From the NCBI RefSeq assembly GCF_030531065.1, contig NZ_JAUNOQ010000006.1, forward strand, positions 89,045 to 153,044: 64,000 nucleotides of DNA. The letters are read 5' to 3'. Shown here in pieces: positions 21,178-28,087 of this stretch. A model generated the notes under the pieces. It was not told the origin of the DNA. It worked only from the letters and a program-made list of their open reading frames with translations, and made no database searches. Each line of letters begins with the position of its first letter. The stretch's first letter is position 1. The position numbers and the translations under genes were made by a program. The stretch is from Phascolarctobacterium sp. Its GTDB lineage: Bacteria > Bacillota > Negativicutes > Acidaminococcales > Acidaminococcaceae.

Positions 21178-21215
21178 AAAAAGCAGAGTCTGTGGAAAGC
21201 AGGCTCTGCTTTTTT
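21178..21215 (+). repeat. Hairpin repeat copy R1
   Basis: AAAAAGCAGAGTCTG-TGGAAAG-CAGGCTCTGCTTTTT. Confidence 0.75.
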
Positions 21216-21233
21216 ACGGTTTAATTTGTGTTC

Positions 21234-21266
21234 TTAGCTAAAAAATGCTATAATAATTTTAGCTAA
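21234..21266 (+). promoter_or_regulatory. TA promoter with two TTAGCTAA operators flanking an extended -10
   Basis: TTAGCTAA at 21234-21241 and 21259-21266; TGCTATAAT at 21246-21254. Confidence 0.65.
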
Positions 21267-21278
21267 AGGAGGTGTGCT

Positions 21279-21512
21279 ATGCTTACGGCAACTGCTACGG
21301 AGATACAAAACAATTTTGGCAAATTTTTACAGGCGGCGCAAAGCGGCAATGAAATTATCATTTTAAAAAACGGCGTGGAGGTCGCTAGATTGATTTCTAA
21401 ACAAAGGGCGGTAAATTTTTTGACAGATTCGTTGTTAGGCGTGTTGCATGACGATTACGACGAAAAAGCCATACGCGCTGAAAGGATTGCGGAGCATGAA
21501 AGTTTTGATTGA
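21279..21512 (+). CDS. Phd/YefM-family antitoxin
   Basis: ATATEIQNNFGKFL...EIIILKNG.EVARLI N-terminal Phd motif. Confidence 0.85.
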   Translation: MLTATATEIQNNFGKFLQAAQSGNEIIILKNGVEVARLISKQRAVNFLTDSLLGVLHDDYDEKAIRAERIAEHESFD

Positions 21513-21903
21513 TACAAATATTATTCTTGACGTTTTATGTGCGCGGGTAAACTTTTGGCAAGTGGCGGCGCAGGTTTGGAAGCTGTGCGAAATAAATAGA
21601 GTGGAGGGCTATATTTCTGCGCTTTCAATACCTAATATAGTTTACATTTTGCGCAAAGAGCTTACGCCTGCAAAAACGCAGCAGGTTATCGAACAGCTGC
21701 TTTTAATTTTTAGAGCGGCGGATTTGCGCGCTGATGATTTACTTAAAGCGGCAAGAATGCAGACGCCTGATTTTGAAGACGCATTGCAGATGGTCTGCGC
21801 TATGCGTCTTAAGGCGGACTATATTGTTACCAGAAATATAAAGGATTTTCAAAATAGCAAAATTCAGCCCGTGCTGCCGACAGATTTTTTGAAAATCATT
21901 TAA
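21496..21903 (+). CDS. PIN-domain (VapC-like) toxin
   Basis: MKVLIDTNIILD, DFEDALQ, IVTRNIKDF; start overlaps antitoxin end. Confidence 0.88.
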   Translation: MKVLIDTNIILDVLCARVNFWQVAAQVWKLCEINRVEGYISALSIPNIVYILRKELTPAKTQQVIEQLLLIFRAADLRADDLLKAARMQTPDFEDALQMVCAMRLKADYIVTRNIKDFQNSKIQPVLPTDFLKII

Positions 21904-22101
21904 AAATGTAATAGCGGCATATTTTCCGTTGGCGGCGGTTGCGACGCCGATGTTCCCGTAATTGCGTATTTAAATAAAAAGTACGGCGGCAAGCTTACGG
22001 TTTTGTGGCTGGACGCGCACGGCGATTTAAATTCGCCGCAGGAATCGCAGACCGGATTATTTTACGGTATGCCTGCAAGAACTTTGTTATTTTTGATATG
22101 A
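21904..22101 (+). pseudogene. Internal fragment of an arginase/ureohydrolase-family gene
   Basis: Reads IFSVGGGCDADVPVIAYLNKKYGGKLTVLWLDAHGDLNSPQESQTGLFYGMP (DAHGD metal motif); no start codon, stop at 22099-22101. Confidence 0.8.
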
Positions 22102-22156
22102 TCTTGCTATGAGCATTTTTTGAATGGCGGTTAGCGCGCCAAATATACGGAAATAT

Positions 22157-22193
22157 AAAAAGCAGAGCTTGTCGCAGGCTCTGCTTTTTTTTT
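22157..22193 (+). repeat. Hairpin repeat copy R2
   Basis: AAAAAGCAGAGCTTG-TCG-CAGGCTCTGCTTTTTTTT. Confidence 0.8.
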
Positions 22194-22198
22194 GCGTC

Positions 22199-25039: not shown

Positions 25040-25041
25040 GT

Positions 25042-27459
25042 TCAGCTTCTCCTGTAGTTAATGCTAAAATTATCCAGATAGTCGCGGTACAGCTGGAAGG
25101 TATGTTCCACGTTCAGTTCGCTTATCTTGGCGCGGTAGCCCGCTTCGTAATTGGTGACGATATAAACATAATTTATTTCGGGATGTTCTTCAAGGCGCTC
25201 TTTAAAATCTACAAAATAGTTTTCGTCGACGAGTACGGCGAATTTATTTTGCGGCAAAACGAGCATCGCGGGCGTTGCGTCGTTTGCTGATTTGGGGCAG
25301 GGGCCGACGGCTCCTGCTTTTAACCACAAGAGCGGCAGCAATTCTTTAAACTGCCTGCCCAGCGACACGGCGGTTTTGTCCAAAAAGCCCAGCTTAAAGA
25401 ATGCGCAGTTGGCGGCGAAGCCGTCGGCCATGGGGCGCTTTACTATTTCATCTTTACTTATTAAACCCAGTAGCTCATTTATTTGTTGCTTTACTTTTTT
25501 GAAAACGCTATTGTTATCCGTAACTATGTAAATATCGGTGATATGGTTGTTTTCATTTAATTCTTCTAAATACTCGTCAATATAAGATAAGTCAAAGATA
25601 ATACTTGTATAATATTTTTCAGAAATAATGTAGTGGCTGTTATCTTTTAAAAGGTTTTGAGGTAAATTTTCTTTGCCAATAAGAGCTAAAATACTTTTAC
25701 GAGCTTCGTTGTTTAGAATGTTAGCGTTCAAAGCAATTTGTTTTATGTTGCGGGTAATTTCTACTGTTTTCTTTAAAGTAGTAAAATATTCGCCTTTGAG
25801 AGAATTGCCGTTTATATCTACGCCTTTAATAGAAAGTTTTGTGCGCGGCCAAGTAACGTAACGAGCGACACCTAAGTTTTCCCATTCTGTGTCACCTGGT
25901 TGATAGCCATTATTCCGAAGAGTTTTAGCTTCGTCTTCTGATACTTCATTATTCGTTACCATTATGCAACGGCGCTGGCCACCGTCTTCCGCATTTAGTA
26001 AATTTACTGCGTGTAGCGTAGTGCCGCTACCAGCGAAGAAATCCACGATGAGAGCATCGGTTTTTTCTTTTATAAAATAATTTATTGTATCATGAACAGA
26101 ATAAAGAGACTTTGGAAAATTAAATTTACCATCACCTATTATAGATTTGATTAGAGAAGTTCCGTATTGTCAAGCATCATGAAGTTTGTTTTTCCATACA
26201 GTTGTGGCACGAGTTACTTTTCCTTGAGTTTCGACAACAATTCTAGTGCCATCATCTCTGAATCCTCTAAAAGCCCATCTACCAGAATTTATTTTTTGTG
26301 TATAGTTTGAACTTAAATATTTGAAAATATATGGTTGAAATTCATTGCCTTTAGAGACTCGTACTAATCCTTGGTCAACCATTGTTTTTAGTGACTCTTT
26401 AGTTAATCCCCAGTTCATTTCAACGCCATCTTCTCGTATTGGAAATACAGGAGTTGCATCTTTGATTGATGGTATACTGTTTGTACTTTCTTCGGGGGAA
26501 AGAGCATTTCCAATTTTTATGATTTTATGAGAGGAATCGTTTACATATATAGGAAAAAATTGTGCGACCCCTCCTTTAGTTGTACCCCGTCTAGAGGAGT
26601 AGTCTGTTCTCCTTAAATAAAACCATCTTACTTCACGTTCTGTGCCATCTCCTGTGGGATGAATAACGTGCGCATTGCCAAACAGAACAACGTAGGCAAA
26701 TTCATCTGCTCGAGAAAATAAGTTGTCTCTTTTGGCTCCGGAAGGATTGATGGTTATGCTTACCATTTGCATATTAGCTTCCGGAAACATTTCCTCCAGC
26801 AAGCATCCCAAATGCAAATATTCTTTTTCATCAATCGTCACAATCAGCACGGAATCTTTGGGATTGAGCAGCTTCTTCGCCAACGCCAAACGCTTTTCCA
26901 TAAACGACAGCCATTTGCTGTGACGGTAAGCGTCGCTGCCGTCGACGTAATTATTATTGTACTTCCAATCCTTCGCGCCGGTGTTGTAGGGCGGGTCGAT
27001 ATAAATGCAGTCGACCTTACCGTGGTAAAGATAATCTAAAAGTTGCAGCGCGTGGTAATTATCAGCTTCAATAAGCGCGTGCCACAAATCGCTGCCCGGC
27101 GCGTTGCAAATACTGTCGATAGGCTGCAAATAAGGGTAGATTGGTTCGCCGAAGGTAGCGACGACGACTAAATCCTGCACGGCAAAATTTATCGGCTCGC
27201 TGGCGTCTTTTTTGAGACAGCGGGCAACGCCGTCTTCTACTGATAAAACTTTATAAGCATCGGCTAGGGAAGAATTTTTTAGCGCGACGGTTTTGCCGGC
27301 CGTTACGGGGACGTCGTATAAGGGAGTGCATTCCGGTAAATGGTTTTCAAATACAAGGCCGAATTTTTTCCCTTTTTGCATTTTGCTGATTTCGGCGGCG
27401 ATGCGCGCGCGTAAATCCGCGTCGGCTATTTTGTTGATTAAATCGTCTATGGCTGCCAT
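25042..27459 (-). pseudogene. Type III R-M Mod (N6-adenine methyltransferase) interrupted by one in-frame TGA at 26170-26172
   Basis: Upstream part has IYIDPPYNTG; frame continues after HDA-TGA as QYGTSL...FNFPKSLYSV...VDFFAGSGTTLHAV with no frameshift. Confidence 0.85.
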
Positions 27460-27655
27460 GAGTTACGCTCCTATGATGAATTTCCTCTAGCGTTTTCATA
27501 ATCCTGCATTCGGAAAAATTATAGCTAATTTTATTTAATTCTACGTCGGCGGGCAAAATCCCCCTAACTAATTGCAAAAATGAAAAATAGTTGAGGGAAA
27601 GAACTAGGCGACGGCGTAAGGAAAAAGTAATAAAGTCGGCTTTATAAGAAAAATT

Positions 27656-27686
27656 AAGCAGAGCTTGTCACAGGCTCTGCCTTTTT
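27656..27686 (+). repeat. Hairpin repeat copy R3
   Basis: AAGCAGAGCTTG-TCA-CAGGCTCTGCCTTTTT; near-identical to R2. Confidence 0.8.
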
Positions 27687-27840
27687 GCGAAAATACATTT
27701 TCTTTTTAAACTGGTTGTGTTATAATAAAAGCGGCGCTTGCCATAACGGTAGGCGGTTTCTCTTGCGAGAGTGAGCAGCCCTTCTTTTAATTTAAAGCTT
27801 CGCCGGTTTTGCCGGAAAGCTCATGAAAGAGGGTGATGCC

Positions 27841-27930
27841 ATGAGTGTGTTAGACGTTATAGCTTTGCTAAGCTTCGGTTTGGCTTGCTTCAAACTCGGA
27901 TATACCATCGGTAGAAATGCAAAAAAATAA
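27841..27930 (+). CDS. 29-aa hydrophobic peptide, candidate type I toxin (MSVLDVIALLSFGLACFKLGYTIGRNAKK)
   Basis: RBS AGAGGGTG; extended -10 TGTGTTATAAT at 27716-27726; single hydrophobic segment and basic C-terminus; below the ORF-track cutoff. Confidence 0.75.
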   Translation: MSVLDVIALLSFGLACFKLGYTIGRNAKK

Positions 27931-28012
27931 CCGCCAAGCCTCGAAATCTGACGGTTATTTTTTGTAAATAACATTGAAGAAGGGCAACCGTCTATCGGCA
28001 AGCGCCTTTTCT
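27920..28012 (-). ncRNA. Candidate antisense antitoxin sRNA (~90-95 nt)
   Basis: Minus-strand promoter TTGCTT (28047-28042)-17 bp-TACAAT (28024-28019); terminator hairpin 27924-27963 pairs better on the minus strand (G.U rather than C.A). Confidence 0.6.
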
Positions 28013-28057
28013 ATTATTATTGTACTACTTTATTTTTAGATAAGCAAGAGATTTTTT

Positions 28058-28087
28058 AGCAGAGCCTGCCGCAGGCTCTGCCTTTTT
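28058..28087 (+). repeat. Hairpin repeat copy R4
   Basis: AGCAGAGCCTG-CCG-CAGGCTCTGCCTTTTT. Confidence 0.8.

What the first reader, a model, noticed from the sequence alone, without database searches (positions are those of the whole stretch)
21178..28087. Defence/TA modules stacked as cassettes, each delimited by the same hairpin repeat
Seen: four copies of AGCAGAG(C/T)(C/T)TG-N3-7-CAGGCTCTGC(C/T)TTTT at 21178, 22157, 27656 and 28058, all in one orientation. The 3' arm CAGGCTCTGC is invariant, and the 5'-arm changes are G.T/G.U-compatible on the + strand. They separate [Phd-PIN + arginase fragment], [type III R-M], [type I TA] and [Phd-RelE]. R2 and R3 differ at only 2 of ~30 nt and directly flank the 5.5-kb R-M module. 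R3 has no + strand gene upstream to terminate. Inference: these may act as recombination or insertion sites (attC/REP-like or duplicated att sites) building a cassette array of defence genes, not just terminators. No integrase is visible in this window.
Basis: partly seen in the sequence, partly recalled or inferred. Interest (0 to 1): 0.66.

Follow-up and report, generated by a model that had tools for sequence, protein, structure and literature searches.

The report
Terminator hairpin copies delimit gene cassettes
One gene's transcription-stop hairpin is present in four copies that separate toxin-antitoxin and restriction modules, and related strains have lost, gained or reordered modules at these copies, so the locus looks like an integron cassette array although the genome has no integron integrase.

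Summary
Four same-strand copies of GCAGAG(Y)(Y)TG-loop-CAGGCTCTGC-T-run lie at 21178, 22157, 27656 and 28058. They are the only copies in the 2.37-Mb genome, and no array like this turned up in the other collections searched.

The hairpin is the intrinsic terminator of the 191-aa lipoprotein-like gene at 20585-21160 (geneA). Some related strains carry it once. Others carry two to four copies, always in geneA's orientation, and each copy sits at a module boundary. The modules are Phd-PIN, the kdp operon, a type III R-M, a type I toxin and a RelE-like pair.

Three presence/absence differences end inside the hairpin. One is an R-M-free allele with a single hairpin.

Elsewhere, homologous Phd-PIN cassettes are flanked by duplicates of different local terminators. 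At least ten other accessory modules in this genome show the same footprint.

Best reading: serial "insertion with long target duplication" at one terminator, followed by deletion and reshuffling by recombination between the copies. It is not an attC, REP or Xer site: the genome has no integron integrase and no Y1 transposase. The enzymology is unknown.

This scan has noted toxin-antitoxin (TA) cassettes flanked by duplicated terminators in many other genomes. The four-copy array and the reshuffling are the new part.

The parts
20585..21160 (+). geneA: 191-aa signal-peptide protein with no family match. It is the conserved left flank of the hotspot, and its terminator is the repeated hairpin.
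   Evidence: Followed by a single hairpin in strains L159-L164, L167-L171 and L259.
21178..21215 (+). R1: hairpin GCAGAGTCTG-TGGAAAG-CAGGCTCTGC plus T6. It is geneA's own terminator and the parent copy.
   Evidence: -23.7 kcal/mol. Its left flank is homologous to the single-copy alleles.
21279..21903 (+). Phd antitoxin (21279-21512) and PIN toxin (21496-21903), with their own promoter at about 21222-21250.
   Evidence: (PhdYeFM 1.4e-7, PIN_3 8.7e-23).
21904..22101 (+). Internal fragment of an arginase-family gene, the remnant of a lost cassette.
   Evidence: Arginase 3.6e-9, profile positions 88-142 of 280. No other copy in the genome. Absent from strain S.
22157..22193 (+). R2: hairpin with loop TCG and T9. 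An A-run upstream makes it a two-way terminator for the PIN operon and for res.
22199..27459 (-). Type III R-M: res 22199-25039 and mod 25042-27459. Mod is interrupted by an in-frame TGA at 26170-26172.
   Evidence: Mod is intact (650 aa) in strains S and L253.
27656..27686 (+). R3: hairpin with loop TCA, followed by CTTTTT. No co-oriented gene lies upstream.
   Evidence: It shares the derived C after the stem with R4.
27689..28057 (+). Type I toxin cassette: promoter, long 5' UTR, a 29-aa hydrophobic peptide at 27841-27930 and its own terminator at about 27930-27965.
   Evidence: It belongs to a multicopy family in the genus (33 of 44 genomes, 7 matches in this genome). It is absent from strain S, which has one hairpin in its place.
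28058..28087 (+). R4: perfect palindrome GCAGAGCCTG-CCG-CAGGCTCTGC followed by CTTTTT. The T-run is on the + strand only.
28104..28750 (-). RelE/ParE-like toxin (28104-28445) and Phd-like antitoxin (28445-28750), overlapping by 4 nt.
   Evidence: ParE_toxin 1.7e-4 and PhdYeFM 3.8e-3, both just under the cut-offs. No NCBIfam match.
29130..30908 (+). T-box leader and trpE, the conserved right flank of the hotspot.
   Evidence: The same flank is found in strains S, L253 and L254.

Best explanation
The four repeats are copies of the intrinsic terminator of geneA (20585-21160).

Inferred: each time a self-contained module landed at this terminator, the whole hairpin was duplicated, leaving one copy on each side of the insert. 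This is the footprint called 'insertion with long target duplication', previously described for restriction-modification units that carry no mobility gene. Repeated hits on the same terminator or its copies built the array geneA | Phd-PIN | R-M | type I toxin | RelE-like | trp.

Shown by strain comparison: the copies are the breakpoints of later events. Modules are missing together with exactly one hairpin copy, and homologous modules sit in different slots in different strains. Recombination between the short direct repeats would explain this. The result looks like an integron cassette array, but there is no integrase and no attC.

Predicted from sequence: the copies still fold as strong terminators, so they probably also insulate neighbouring toxin and restriction operons from read-through.

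Unknown: the enzyme or repair pathway that makes the duplication.
For: 1. The hairpin is confined to this locus. There are 4 copies in the genome. None was found in 40 relatives or in 43 other genomes of the genus. Only unrelated single terminators matched in 185,579 species genomes and in the metagenome collection.

2. It is geneA's terminator. Strains whose geneA is 94-96% identical carry one copy directly after geneA (L159-L164, L167-L171, L259).

3. All copies in all strains keep geneA's orientation, even next to minus-strand genes. R3 has nothing to terminate. R4 has no T-run on the strand of the gene beside it.

4. Three presence/absence differences end inside the hairpin.
- L253 has geneA|h|res-mod|h|toxI. 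L255, with flanks 97.7% identical, has geneA|h|toxI. One 45-nt stretch of L255 aligns to both L253 copies.
- The window has R3-toxI-R4 where strain S has one hairpin. That hairpin carries R3's left flank and R4's right flank.
- S has h-PhdPIN-h-kdp where L165 has h-kdp.

5. Strain S is a mosaic. The core of its first hairpin equals L165's first hairpin, and the core of its second equals the window's R1. The two cores differ at 8 of 17 positions. This places crossovers in the shared 3' arm.

6. Slot order differs. Phd-PIN lies left of the R-M in the window and in S, but right of R-M and toxI in L253.

7. The duplicated sequence comes from the target.
- Homologous Phd-PIN cassettes in G003 and G058 are flanked by 40-nt and 33-nt repeats of a different hairpin, the terminator of a porin gene. 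The G011 orthologue has that hairpin once.
- G015 has a third case.
- A 67-nt perfect repeat at C10:129994/135470 includes the last five codons of the upstream gene. The same site is empty in G013.

8. At least ten modules in this genome show the same footprint, each with its own hairpin: Phd-ParE, RelB-YafQ plus type III R-M, HigBA-like, MNT-HEPN, Fic, AAA_14 and PDDEXK_2.

9. The inserts share no end motifs. The modules of this array carry no mobility gene.
Against: - No insertion was observed directly. Every documented difference can also be read as a deletion, and parsimony favours deletion for the R-M-free and toxI-free alleles.
- The two copies flanking a module are often not identical (R1 against R2, S1 against S2). 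A simple target duplication therefore needs later conversion or recombination to explain them.
- The copies within one genome resemble each other more than copies at the same position in different strains do. The window has 3-nt loops, while S and L165 have GCAGGG arms with CT-starting 7-nt loops. Gene conversion is therefore also at work.
- One indel at this locus, a GNAT gene in L159 and L163, breaks about 100 nt away from the hairpin.
- The + strand wobble rule fails in the L253/L256 lineage.
- The comparison strains are metagenome contigs, not isolates.
Confidence: 0.68

Rival explanations
1. The hairpin is the core site of a dedicated site-specific recombination system, comparable to a very short attC or a Xer/dif-like site. 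A recombinase encoded elsewhere in the genome would excise and insert cassettes at it.
For: The 10-7-10 palindromes resemble the core sites of tyrosine recombinases. The 3' arm is invariant in the window, S, L165 and L159-type strains. Two events place the crossover in the 3' arm. The genome has six tyrosine recombinases on other contigs.
Against: Loop length varies from 3 to 7 nt and loop sequence varies freely. The L255 crossover lies in the 5' half of the hairpin. The 3' arm is not invariant in L253 and L256. No integron integrase: best match 82 bits against a cut-off of 265. No Y1 transposase. No recombinase gene on this contig. Homologous cassettes and ten other loci use unrelated hairpin sequences.
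Confidence: 0.12
2. There is no special insertion step. Cassettes circulate as circles, each made by recombination between two hairpin copies in a donor, and they enter by ordinary single-crossover homologous recombination at any resident copy. Every duplication would then be a Campbell-type duplication of pre-existing homology.
For: The mosaic in strain S is exactly what integration of a [Phd-PIN plus R1-type hairpin] circle into an L165-like site would give. Crossover points are not fixed.
Against: It does not explain how the first duplicate arose. It does not explain why the same cassette family carries different local terminators in other species. The identical stretches are only 15-45 nt, which is short for efficient RecA-dependent recombination (general knowledge).
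Confidence: 0.12
3. These are ordinary terminators with no part in rearrangement. Each module would have its own terminator, and the copies would look alike through common descent or local gene conversion.
For: All four fold as strong hairpins followed by T-runs. R1 and R2 sit where terminators are expected. Copies within a genome show concerted evolution.
Against: Three presence/absence differences end inside the hairpin and leave single-copy alleles. All copies have geneA's orientation whatever the orientation of their neighbours. R3 terminates nothing. The toxin cassette already has its own terminator, so R4 is redundant. Other recurring terminator hairpins in this genome are parts of longer repeated RNA elements, unlike these copies, which share only the hairpin.
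Confidence: 0.05

Closest known systems
Insertion with long target duplication of restriction-modification units (Nobusato et al. 2000, as cited in Furuta, Abe and Kobayashi 2010, PMC2853133)
   Same: A gene unit without integrase or transposase is flanked by direct repeats tens of bases long. The repeats occur once in the empty allele, differ from site to site and are unique in the genome. Type III R-M units are among the published cases. The L253/L255 pair here meets those criteria.
   Different: The published cases are single insertions. Here one target has been reused, giving a four-copy array that holds TA, R-M and, in relatives, kdp modules. The duplicated segment is specifically a terminator hairpin. 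The copies later served as breakpoints for deletion and reordering. The paper does not use the word 'terminator' at all (0 occurrences).
Integron cassette arrays and CALINs (attC clusters without an integrase)
   Same: Promoter-bearing or promoterless cassettes sit in series, each delimited by a same-strand imperfect palindrome. TA cassettes are typical cargo. Cassette order differs between strains. Crossovers near the 3' end of the site leave the bulk of the site attached to the upstream cassette.
   Different: There is no IntI. The hairpin is 23-27 nt rather than 57-141 nt and has no R''/R' boxes. Its sequence comes from a neighbouring gene's terminator and differs from locus to locus. Only this one locus carries it.
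pdif modules of Acinetobacter plasmids (XerC/XerD sites flanking resistance and TA modules; from my own knowledge)
   Same: Small modules without mobility genes, TA pairs among them, are delimited by short imperfect palindromes and are found in different combinations.
   Different: pdif sites are 11-6-11 with a fixed spacer and alternate in orientation. Here the spacer is 3 or 7 nt and all copies are direct.
REP/BIME elements with RAYT transposases
   Same: Short intergenic imperfect palindromes with strand-specific pairing.
   Different: REPs occur in tens to hundreds of dispersed copies and depend on a Y1 transposase. Here there are four copies in 7 kb and no Y1 gene.
CRISPR repeat duplication during spacer integration (works-like comparison only)
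   Same: Insertion at a palindromic repeat copies the whole repeat, so an array grows as repeat-insert-repeat.
   Different: The inserts here are 0.4-8 kb gene modules. No role for Cas1 was tested. The only link is a side observation of TA cassettes in spacer slots of a CRISPR array in another Negativicutes genome.

Membership tests
Intrinsic (Rho-independent) terminator | G+C-rich stem-loop followed directly by a U-run | tested here: met
   One search lists R2, R3 and R4. One search gives + strand folds of -15.9 to -23.7 kcal/mol (z-scores -3.5 to -6.1), each followed by T5-T9.
Intrinsic (Rho-independent) terminator | Each copy lies just downstream of a co-oriented transcription unit that needs it | tested here: not met
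   R1 and R2 qualify. R3 follows only the divergent mod promoter region. R4 follows a toxin cassette that has its own terminator, and it has no T-run on the strand of the adjacent RelE-like gene.
Insertion with long target duplication (ILTD) | Direct repeats flank the insert and align to a single copy in an allele without the insert | tested here: met
   L253 against L255 for the R-M. Window against S for the type I toxin. S against L165 for Phd-PIN. Single copy after geneA in L159-L164.
Insertion with long target duplication (ILTD) | The repeat is local target sequence, not carried by the insert | tested here: met
   The hairpin is geneA's terminator. Homologous Phd-PIN cassettes carry other local terminators in G003, G058 and G015. 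The C10 67-nt repeat includes the upstream gene's last codons.
Insertion with long target duplication (ILTD) | No integrase, transposase or other mobility gene in the insert | tested here: met
   Pfam and NCBIfam matches for all ORFs of the array. No shared end motifs among inserts.
Insertion with long target duplication (ILTD) | Repeat longer than 30 bp (criterion of Furuta et al. 2010) | tested here: inconclusive
   The shared segment is 30-38 nt in the window and 45 nt in L253. This is only marginally above the threshold.
Integron / CALIN | IntI-type tyrosine recombinase | tested here: not met
   TIGR02249 best match is 81.7 bits against a cut-off of 265, the same level as in the control genomes.
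Integron / CALIN | attC sites: 57-141 nt, R''-L''...L'-R' with RYYYAAC and GTTRRRY boxes | tested here: not met
   The hairpins are 23-27 nt and contain neither box.
REP / BIME | Many dispersed genomic copies plus a RAYT (Y1) transposase | tested here: not met
   Four copies, all within 7 kb. PF01797 absent from a genome that is 99.5% complete.
Xer / pdif modules | 11-6-11 XerC/XerD site with a fixed spacer, and sites alternating in orientation | tested here: not met
   Arms of 10 nt, spacer of 3 or 7 nt, all copies direct. Xer binding itself is not testable with these tools.
Tandem accretion of integrative elements (CIME-like) | att repeats generated by an integrase at or near the array | tested here: not met
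   None of the six PF00589 genes lies on contig C9. Action in trans cannot be excluded with these tools.

The most novel reading that the evidence does not exclude
Terminator hairpins, and perhaps palindromic repeats in general including CRISPR repeats, may be structure-specific landing sites for a pathway that needs no transposase and has not been described. The pathway would insert self-contained gene modules and copy the whole hairpin to both sides. In Phascolarctobacterium it would account for much of the acquisition of TA, R-M, Fic, PDDEXK_2 and AAA_14 modules. Repeated use of one terminator would then create an integron-like array without an integrase, and the hairpin copies would behave as portable recombination sites.
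Probability: 0.3. Interest if true: 0.85.

Novelty: new variant of a known kind. Interest (0 to 1): 0.6.

Why it matters
How toxin-antitoxin and restriction-modification modules move without any mobility gene is an old open question. This locus offers a compact system for studying it. One 30-nt terminator hairpin has been reused at least three times. Natural alleles exist with one, two and four copies, and modules are lost or reordered at the copies. The same genome holds about ten further examples, each with a different hairpin.

The locus also shows how a defence island with the layout of an integron can arise from nothing more than a terminator. That matters for predicting hotspots, for annotating cassette boundaries, and for choosing or avoiding terminators as insertion sites in engineered strains.

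Tried and rejected
- **Genome-wide terminator family.** Rejected. The hairpin occurs only in this locus.
- **Shared genus-level repeat.** Rejected. A 15-nt scan of 44 genomes of the genus hit only coding sequence.
- **Wider occurrence.** Scans of the species-genome, metagenome and viral collections found unrelated single terminators or nothing, and no arrays.
- **Synteny in other species.** Uninformative. geneA is followed by galE there, and the trp operon lies on other contigs.
- **Rfam.** Only the T-box leader matched. Nothing matched the hairpins.
- **Other recurring terminator hairpins in the genome as a model.** Rejected. They belong to longer repeated RNA-like elements.
- **Type I toxin cassettes in other species.** They are not flanked by repeated hairpins.
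- **Phd-PIN homologues across the class.** Most of the 30 loci have no flanking repeat, so the footprint is frequent but not universal.
- **Empty-site test for the C27 HigBA-like cassette.** Failed because the flanks are not syntenic in relatives.
- **Conserved insert ends.** None found.
- **L254's CsgG-like operon as the same operon as the one at the end of the window.** Rejected by BLAST.
- **Possible kdp-leader remnant beside the Phd-like gene (about 28860-28900).** Seen by eye only and not supported by BLAST, so dropped.
- **Literature searches.** They found the ILTD papers but nothing on terminator-hairpin arrays or on TA cassettes inside CRISPR arrays.

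
Full report
**Observation**

The window holds four same-strand copies of a hairpin plus T-run.
- R1, 21178-21215: GCAGAGTCTG-TGGAAAG-CAGGCTCTGC-T6.
- R2, 22157-22193: GCAGAGCTTG-TCG-CAGGCTCTGC-T9.
- R3, 27656-27686: GCAGAGCTTG-TCA-CAGGCTCTGC-CT5.
- R4, 28058-28087: GCAGAGCCTG-CCG-CAGGCTCTGC-CT5.

These were read and matched, where 0.02 matches were expected by chance. The 3' arm is identical in all four. The 5'-arm differences are transitions that give G.U pairs on the + strand and mismatches on the - strand. 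As + strand RNA the copies fold at -15.9 to -23.7 kcal/mol, and the terminator scan lists R2, R3 and R4.

**Genes**

- geneA, 20585-21160 (+): a 191-aa protein with a signal peptide and no family match.
- After R1: Phd (21279-21512) and PIN (21496-21903), then an internal arginase-family fragment (21904-22101).
- After R2: type III res (22199-25039, -) and mod (25042-27459, -). Mod is split by a TGA at 26170.
- After R3: a type I toxin cassette with a 29-aa peptide (27841-27930) and its own terminator.
- After R4: an overlapping RelE/ParE-like and Phd-like pair (28104-28750, -).
- Then the T-box leader and trpE.

The RelE-like and Phd-like assignments rest on Pfam scores just under the cut-offs.

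**The hairpin is not a general terminator**

The window lies in a 2.37-Mb Phascolarctobacterium genome, named from the TrpE cluster.
- The full hairpin occurs only at these four places in that genome.
- It is absent from 40 relatives.
- In 43 other genomes of the genus, a scan for the 3' arm plus T-run hit only coding sequence.
- Scans of one genome per species, of the metagenome collection and of viral contigs returned unrelated single terminators or nothing, never an array.
- Other recurring terminator hairpins in this genome are parts of longer repeated RNA-like elements. R1-R4 share the hairpin only.

**Alleles in related strains**

Exact and near-exact protein look-ups led to metagenome contigs of the same clade. 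In the layouts below, A is geneA and "|" is a hairpin copy.

| Strain | geneA identity to window | Layout |
|---|---|---|
| Window (L042 is identical to it) | - | A \| Phd-PIN-arg' \| R-M \| toxI \| RelE-like - trp |
| S (SRR9333268; flanks 94% identical) | - | A \| Phd-PIN \| kdpFABCDE \| R-M \| RelE-like - trp |
| L165 | 87% | A \| kdp \| res remnant ... |
| L253 | 85% | A \| R-M \| toxI - Phd-PIN - trp |
| L255 (flanks 97.7% identical to L253) | same protein as L253 | A \| toxI ... |
| L254 | same protein as L253 | A \| toxI 3' remnant - 8-kb operon - trp |
| L256, L257 | 80% | A \| res ... |
| L159-L164, L167-L171, L259 | 94-96% | A \| DEAD helicase - PGI |

The last group carries a single copy. 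The window's genome has no kdp operon at all.

**What the hairpin is**

In every allele the first copy follows geneA's stop codon by about 20 nt. In the single-copy alleles it is simply geneA's terminator: GCAGAGTCTG-CGGGAAG-CAGGCTCTGC, two loop bases away from R1.

All further copies in all strains have geneA's orientation, even beside minus-strand genes. This explains two oddities. R3 has nothing to terminate, and R4 has its T-run on the wrong strand for the RelE-like gene. The copies are therefore duplicates of one terminator, not each module's own terminator.

**Breakpoints fall in the hairpin**

1. *R-M.* One 45-nt stretch of L255 aligns to both hairpin copies that flank the 4,968-bp R-M of L253.
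2. *toxI.* S has one hairpin where the window has R3-toxI-R4. Its left flank and core match R3 and its right flank matches R4. R3 and R4 alone share a derived C after the stem.
3. *Phd-PIN.* L165 has one hairpin where S has hairpin-PhdPIN-hairpin.
4. *Mosaic in S.* The core of S's first copy equals L165's first copy. The core of its second copy equals the window's R1. The two cores differ at 8 of 17 positions, so the crossovers lay in the shared 3' arm.
5. *Slot order.* Phd-PIN sits left of the R-M in the window and in S, but right of R-M and toxI in L253.

By parsimony, the R-M-free and toxI-free alleles are deletions between flanking copies. The R-M is present or vestigial in all lineages, and R-M|toxI adjacency is shared by the most divergent ones.

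In L255 the crossover lies in the 5' half of the hairpin, so the crossover point is not fixed. One indel, a GNAT gene in L159 and L163, breaks about 100 nt from the hairpin.

**The duplicated sequence comes from the target**

- Homologous Phd-PIN cassettes (66-69% DNA identity) in two other species, G003 and G058, are flanked by 40-nt (95% identical) and 33-nt (88%) direct repeats of a different hairpin, AAAACGCTCCTGCC-AAAY-GGCAGGAGCGTTTT.
- The repeat spacing there is 759 and 752 nt, against 766 nt in strain S.
- That hairpin follows an outer-membrane porin gene. The orthologous porin gene of G011 has one related hairpin and no cassette.
- A more distant Phd-PIN cassette in G015 is flanked by 27-nt repeats of the terminator of a membrane-protein gene.

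**The same footprint is common in this genome**

A scan of the window's genome for local direct repeats found at least ten more modules with the footprint, each with its own hairpin.

| Repeat positions | Repeat length | Module enclosed |
|---|---|---|
| C10:72237/72950 | 32 nt | Phd-ParE |
| C10:129994/135470 | 67 nt, perfect | type III res-mod plus RelB-YafQ |
| C27:13937/14680 | 54 nt | Gp49/HigB-like plus HTH antitoxin |
| C15:30566/35055 | 36 nt | MNT-HEPN plus an autotransporter |
| C9:75900/77593 | 46 nt | Fic |
| C25:16747/18126 | 57 nt | AAA_14 ATPase |
| C5, C14, C17 (several sites) | 31-53 nt | PDDEXK_2 nuclease genes |

The remaining cases are C27:55570/58005 (751-aa adhesin-like protein) and C19:125831/128657 (membrane proteins).

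The 67-nt repeat on C10 includes the last five codons of the upstream gene. The same site is uninterrupted in G013. In G050 it holds a different RelB-ParE cassette directly after the hairpin. The inserts share no end motif.

**Mechanism**

*Shown:* the repeats are copies of a local terminator, modules are bounded by them, and rearrangements have their breakpoints in them.

*Inferred:* modules enter by insertion with long target duplication. After that, recombination between the short direct repeats deletes modules, or releases and re-inserts them. Gene conversion keeps the copies within a genome alike: the window has 3-nt loops, while S and L165 have GCAGGG arms with CT-starting loops.

*Unknown:* the enzyme. 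Candidate routes, which I name from general knowledge, are:
- staggered breaks on either side of an extruded hairpin or cruciform;
- independent joining of the two ends of a linear fragment at a stalled fork;
- Campbell-type entry of circles.

The genome has no integron integrase and no Y1 transposase. Its six tyrosine recombinases lie on other contigs.

**Comparison with known systems**

The closest published description is insertion with long target duplication of R-M units, type III among them (PMC2853133). The differences here are:
- the target is a terminator hairpin;
- the target has been reused serially;
- the cargo is mixed, and includes a housekeeping-type kdp operon;
- the copies are later used as breakpoints.

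In layout the array resembles an integron or CALIN, but it fails every defining feature that was tested. It also fails the tested REP/BIME features and the sequence features of Xer/pdif sites; Xer binding itself could not be tested.

**Relation to earlier notes of this scan**

Many notes on other genomes describe single TA cassettes flanked by a duplicated terminator or gene tail, and they reach the same closest-known class. I reached that class independently. What this locus adds is the four-copy array, the reshuffling between strains, and the density of such sites in one genome.

**Limits**

- The comparison strains are metagenome contigs.
- The direction of events rests on parsimony.
- The strand asymmetry of the stem changes holds only in the window, S, L165 and L159-type clade. 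In L253 and L256 the mismatch is on the + strand.

Noticed in passing
L251 (G402:C58:76809-79286), read on the - strand: A CRISPR array (repeat GTTTGAGAAAGTAATCTCCGCGAGGAGACGGAAAC, spacers of 37-38 nt) carries two antitoxin-plus-PIN cassettes of about 715 and 840 nt at its trailer end. Each occupies a spacer slot, with a perfect repeat upstream and a degenerate repeat downstream. No report of this turned up in two literature searches.
   Followed up: partly
L244 (G402:C60:11589-14990), repeat copies at locus positions 1160-1263 and 1954-2058: A PIN cassette is flanked by a 105-nt direct repeat (92% identical) that appears to contain the 3' end of an upstream ORF (it ends in GGTGA followed by an RBS-like stretch and an ATG). 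This looks like another long target duplication.
   Followed up: no
G000 contigs C10:72237-72982, C10:129994-135537, C27:13937-14734, C15:30566-35091, C25:16747-18183, C27:55570-58062, C19:125831-128700, C9:75900-77639, C5:17272-19598, C14:122249-123423, C17:6492-7888: At least ten further accessory modules are flanked by direct repeats of 31-67 nt, most of which visibly contain a terminator-type hairpin. The modules are TA pairs, a second type III R-M, Fic, an AAA_14 ATPase, PDDEXK_2 nuclease genes, and adhesin-like and membrane proteins. The C5, C9 and C14 sites share one hairpin, AGGACGGCCTGCGCCGTCCT.
   Followed up: partly
window 26170-26172: The type III mod gene is split by an in-frame TGA in this strain and in the identical contig L042. 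It is an intact 650-aa gene in strains S and L253. The central target-recognition part of mod is the most divergent stretch between strains (75% identity or unalignable).
   Followed up: partly
window 27689-28057; G000 C10:98533, C19:1561, C19:2061, C19:114811, C26:34341, C3:13342: The type I toxin cassette belongs to a multicopy family. It matched in 33 of 44 genomes of the genus, and there are seven matches in this genome. In other species the cassette often starts directly after an unrelated terminator hairpin.
   Followed up: partly
G000 C11:43384-44560: In single-hairpin strains the DEAD-helicase/PGI block follows geneA. In this genome it lies on another contig, directly beside an ORF whose N-terminus looks like a large serine recombinase and appears interrupted by frame changes (judged by eye only). 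The junction (AGCTGGATTTATAATG) coincides with the breakpoint of the GNAT-gene indel in L159 and L163. This is a second insertion point about 100 nt from the hairpin.
   Followed up: no
L145 (G008:C5) 1555-2135: In the species whose geneA is closest outside the clade, geneA's terminator (AGAGCTTGCTG...CGGCAGGCTCTTTTTT) partly resembles the repeated hairpin. It is followed by three tandem units of about 195 nt of unknown nature.
   Followed up: no
G000 C4:111911-112113: Three tandem 90-nt units each hold what looks like a tRNA 3'-end sequence (GGTTCGATCCCGCTTATCTCCACCA) followed by a terminator hairpin.
   Followed up: no
L166 (ERR3486529 contig), first 30 nt in window orientation: Another strain's RelE-like cassette begins with ...T-GGGGTCACATC-AAGGCTCTGC. 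This could be a compensatory G-C to U-A change at the loop-closing pair of the stem. The contig ends inside the hairpin, so the 5' arm is not visible.
   Followed up: no
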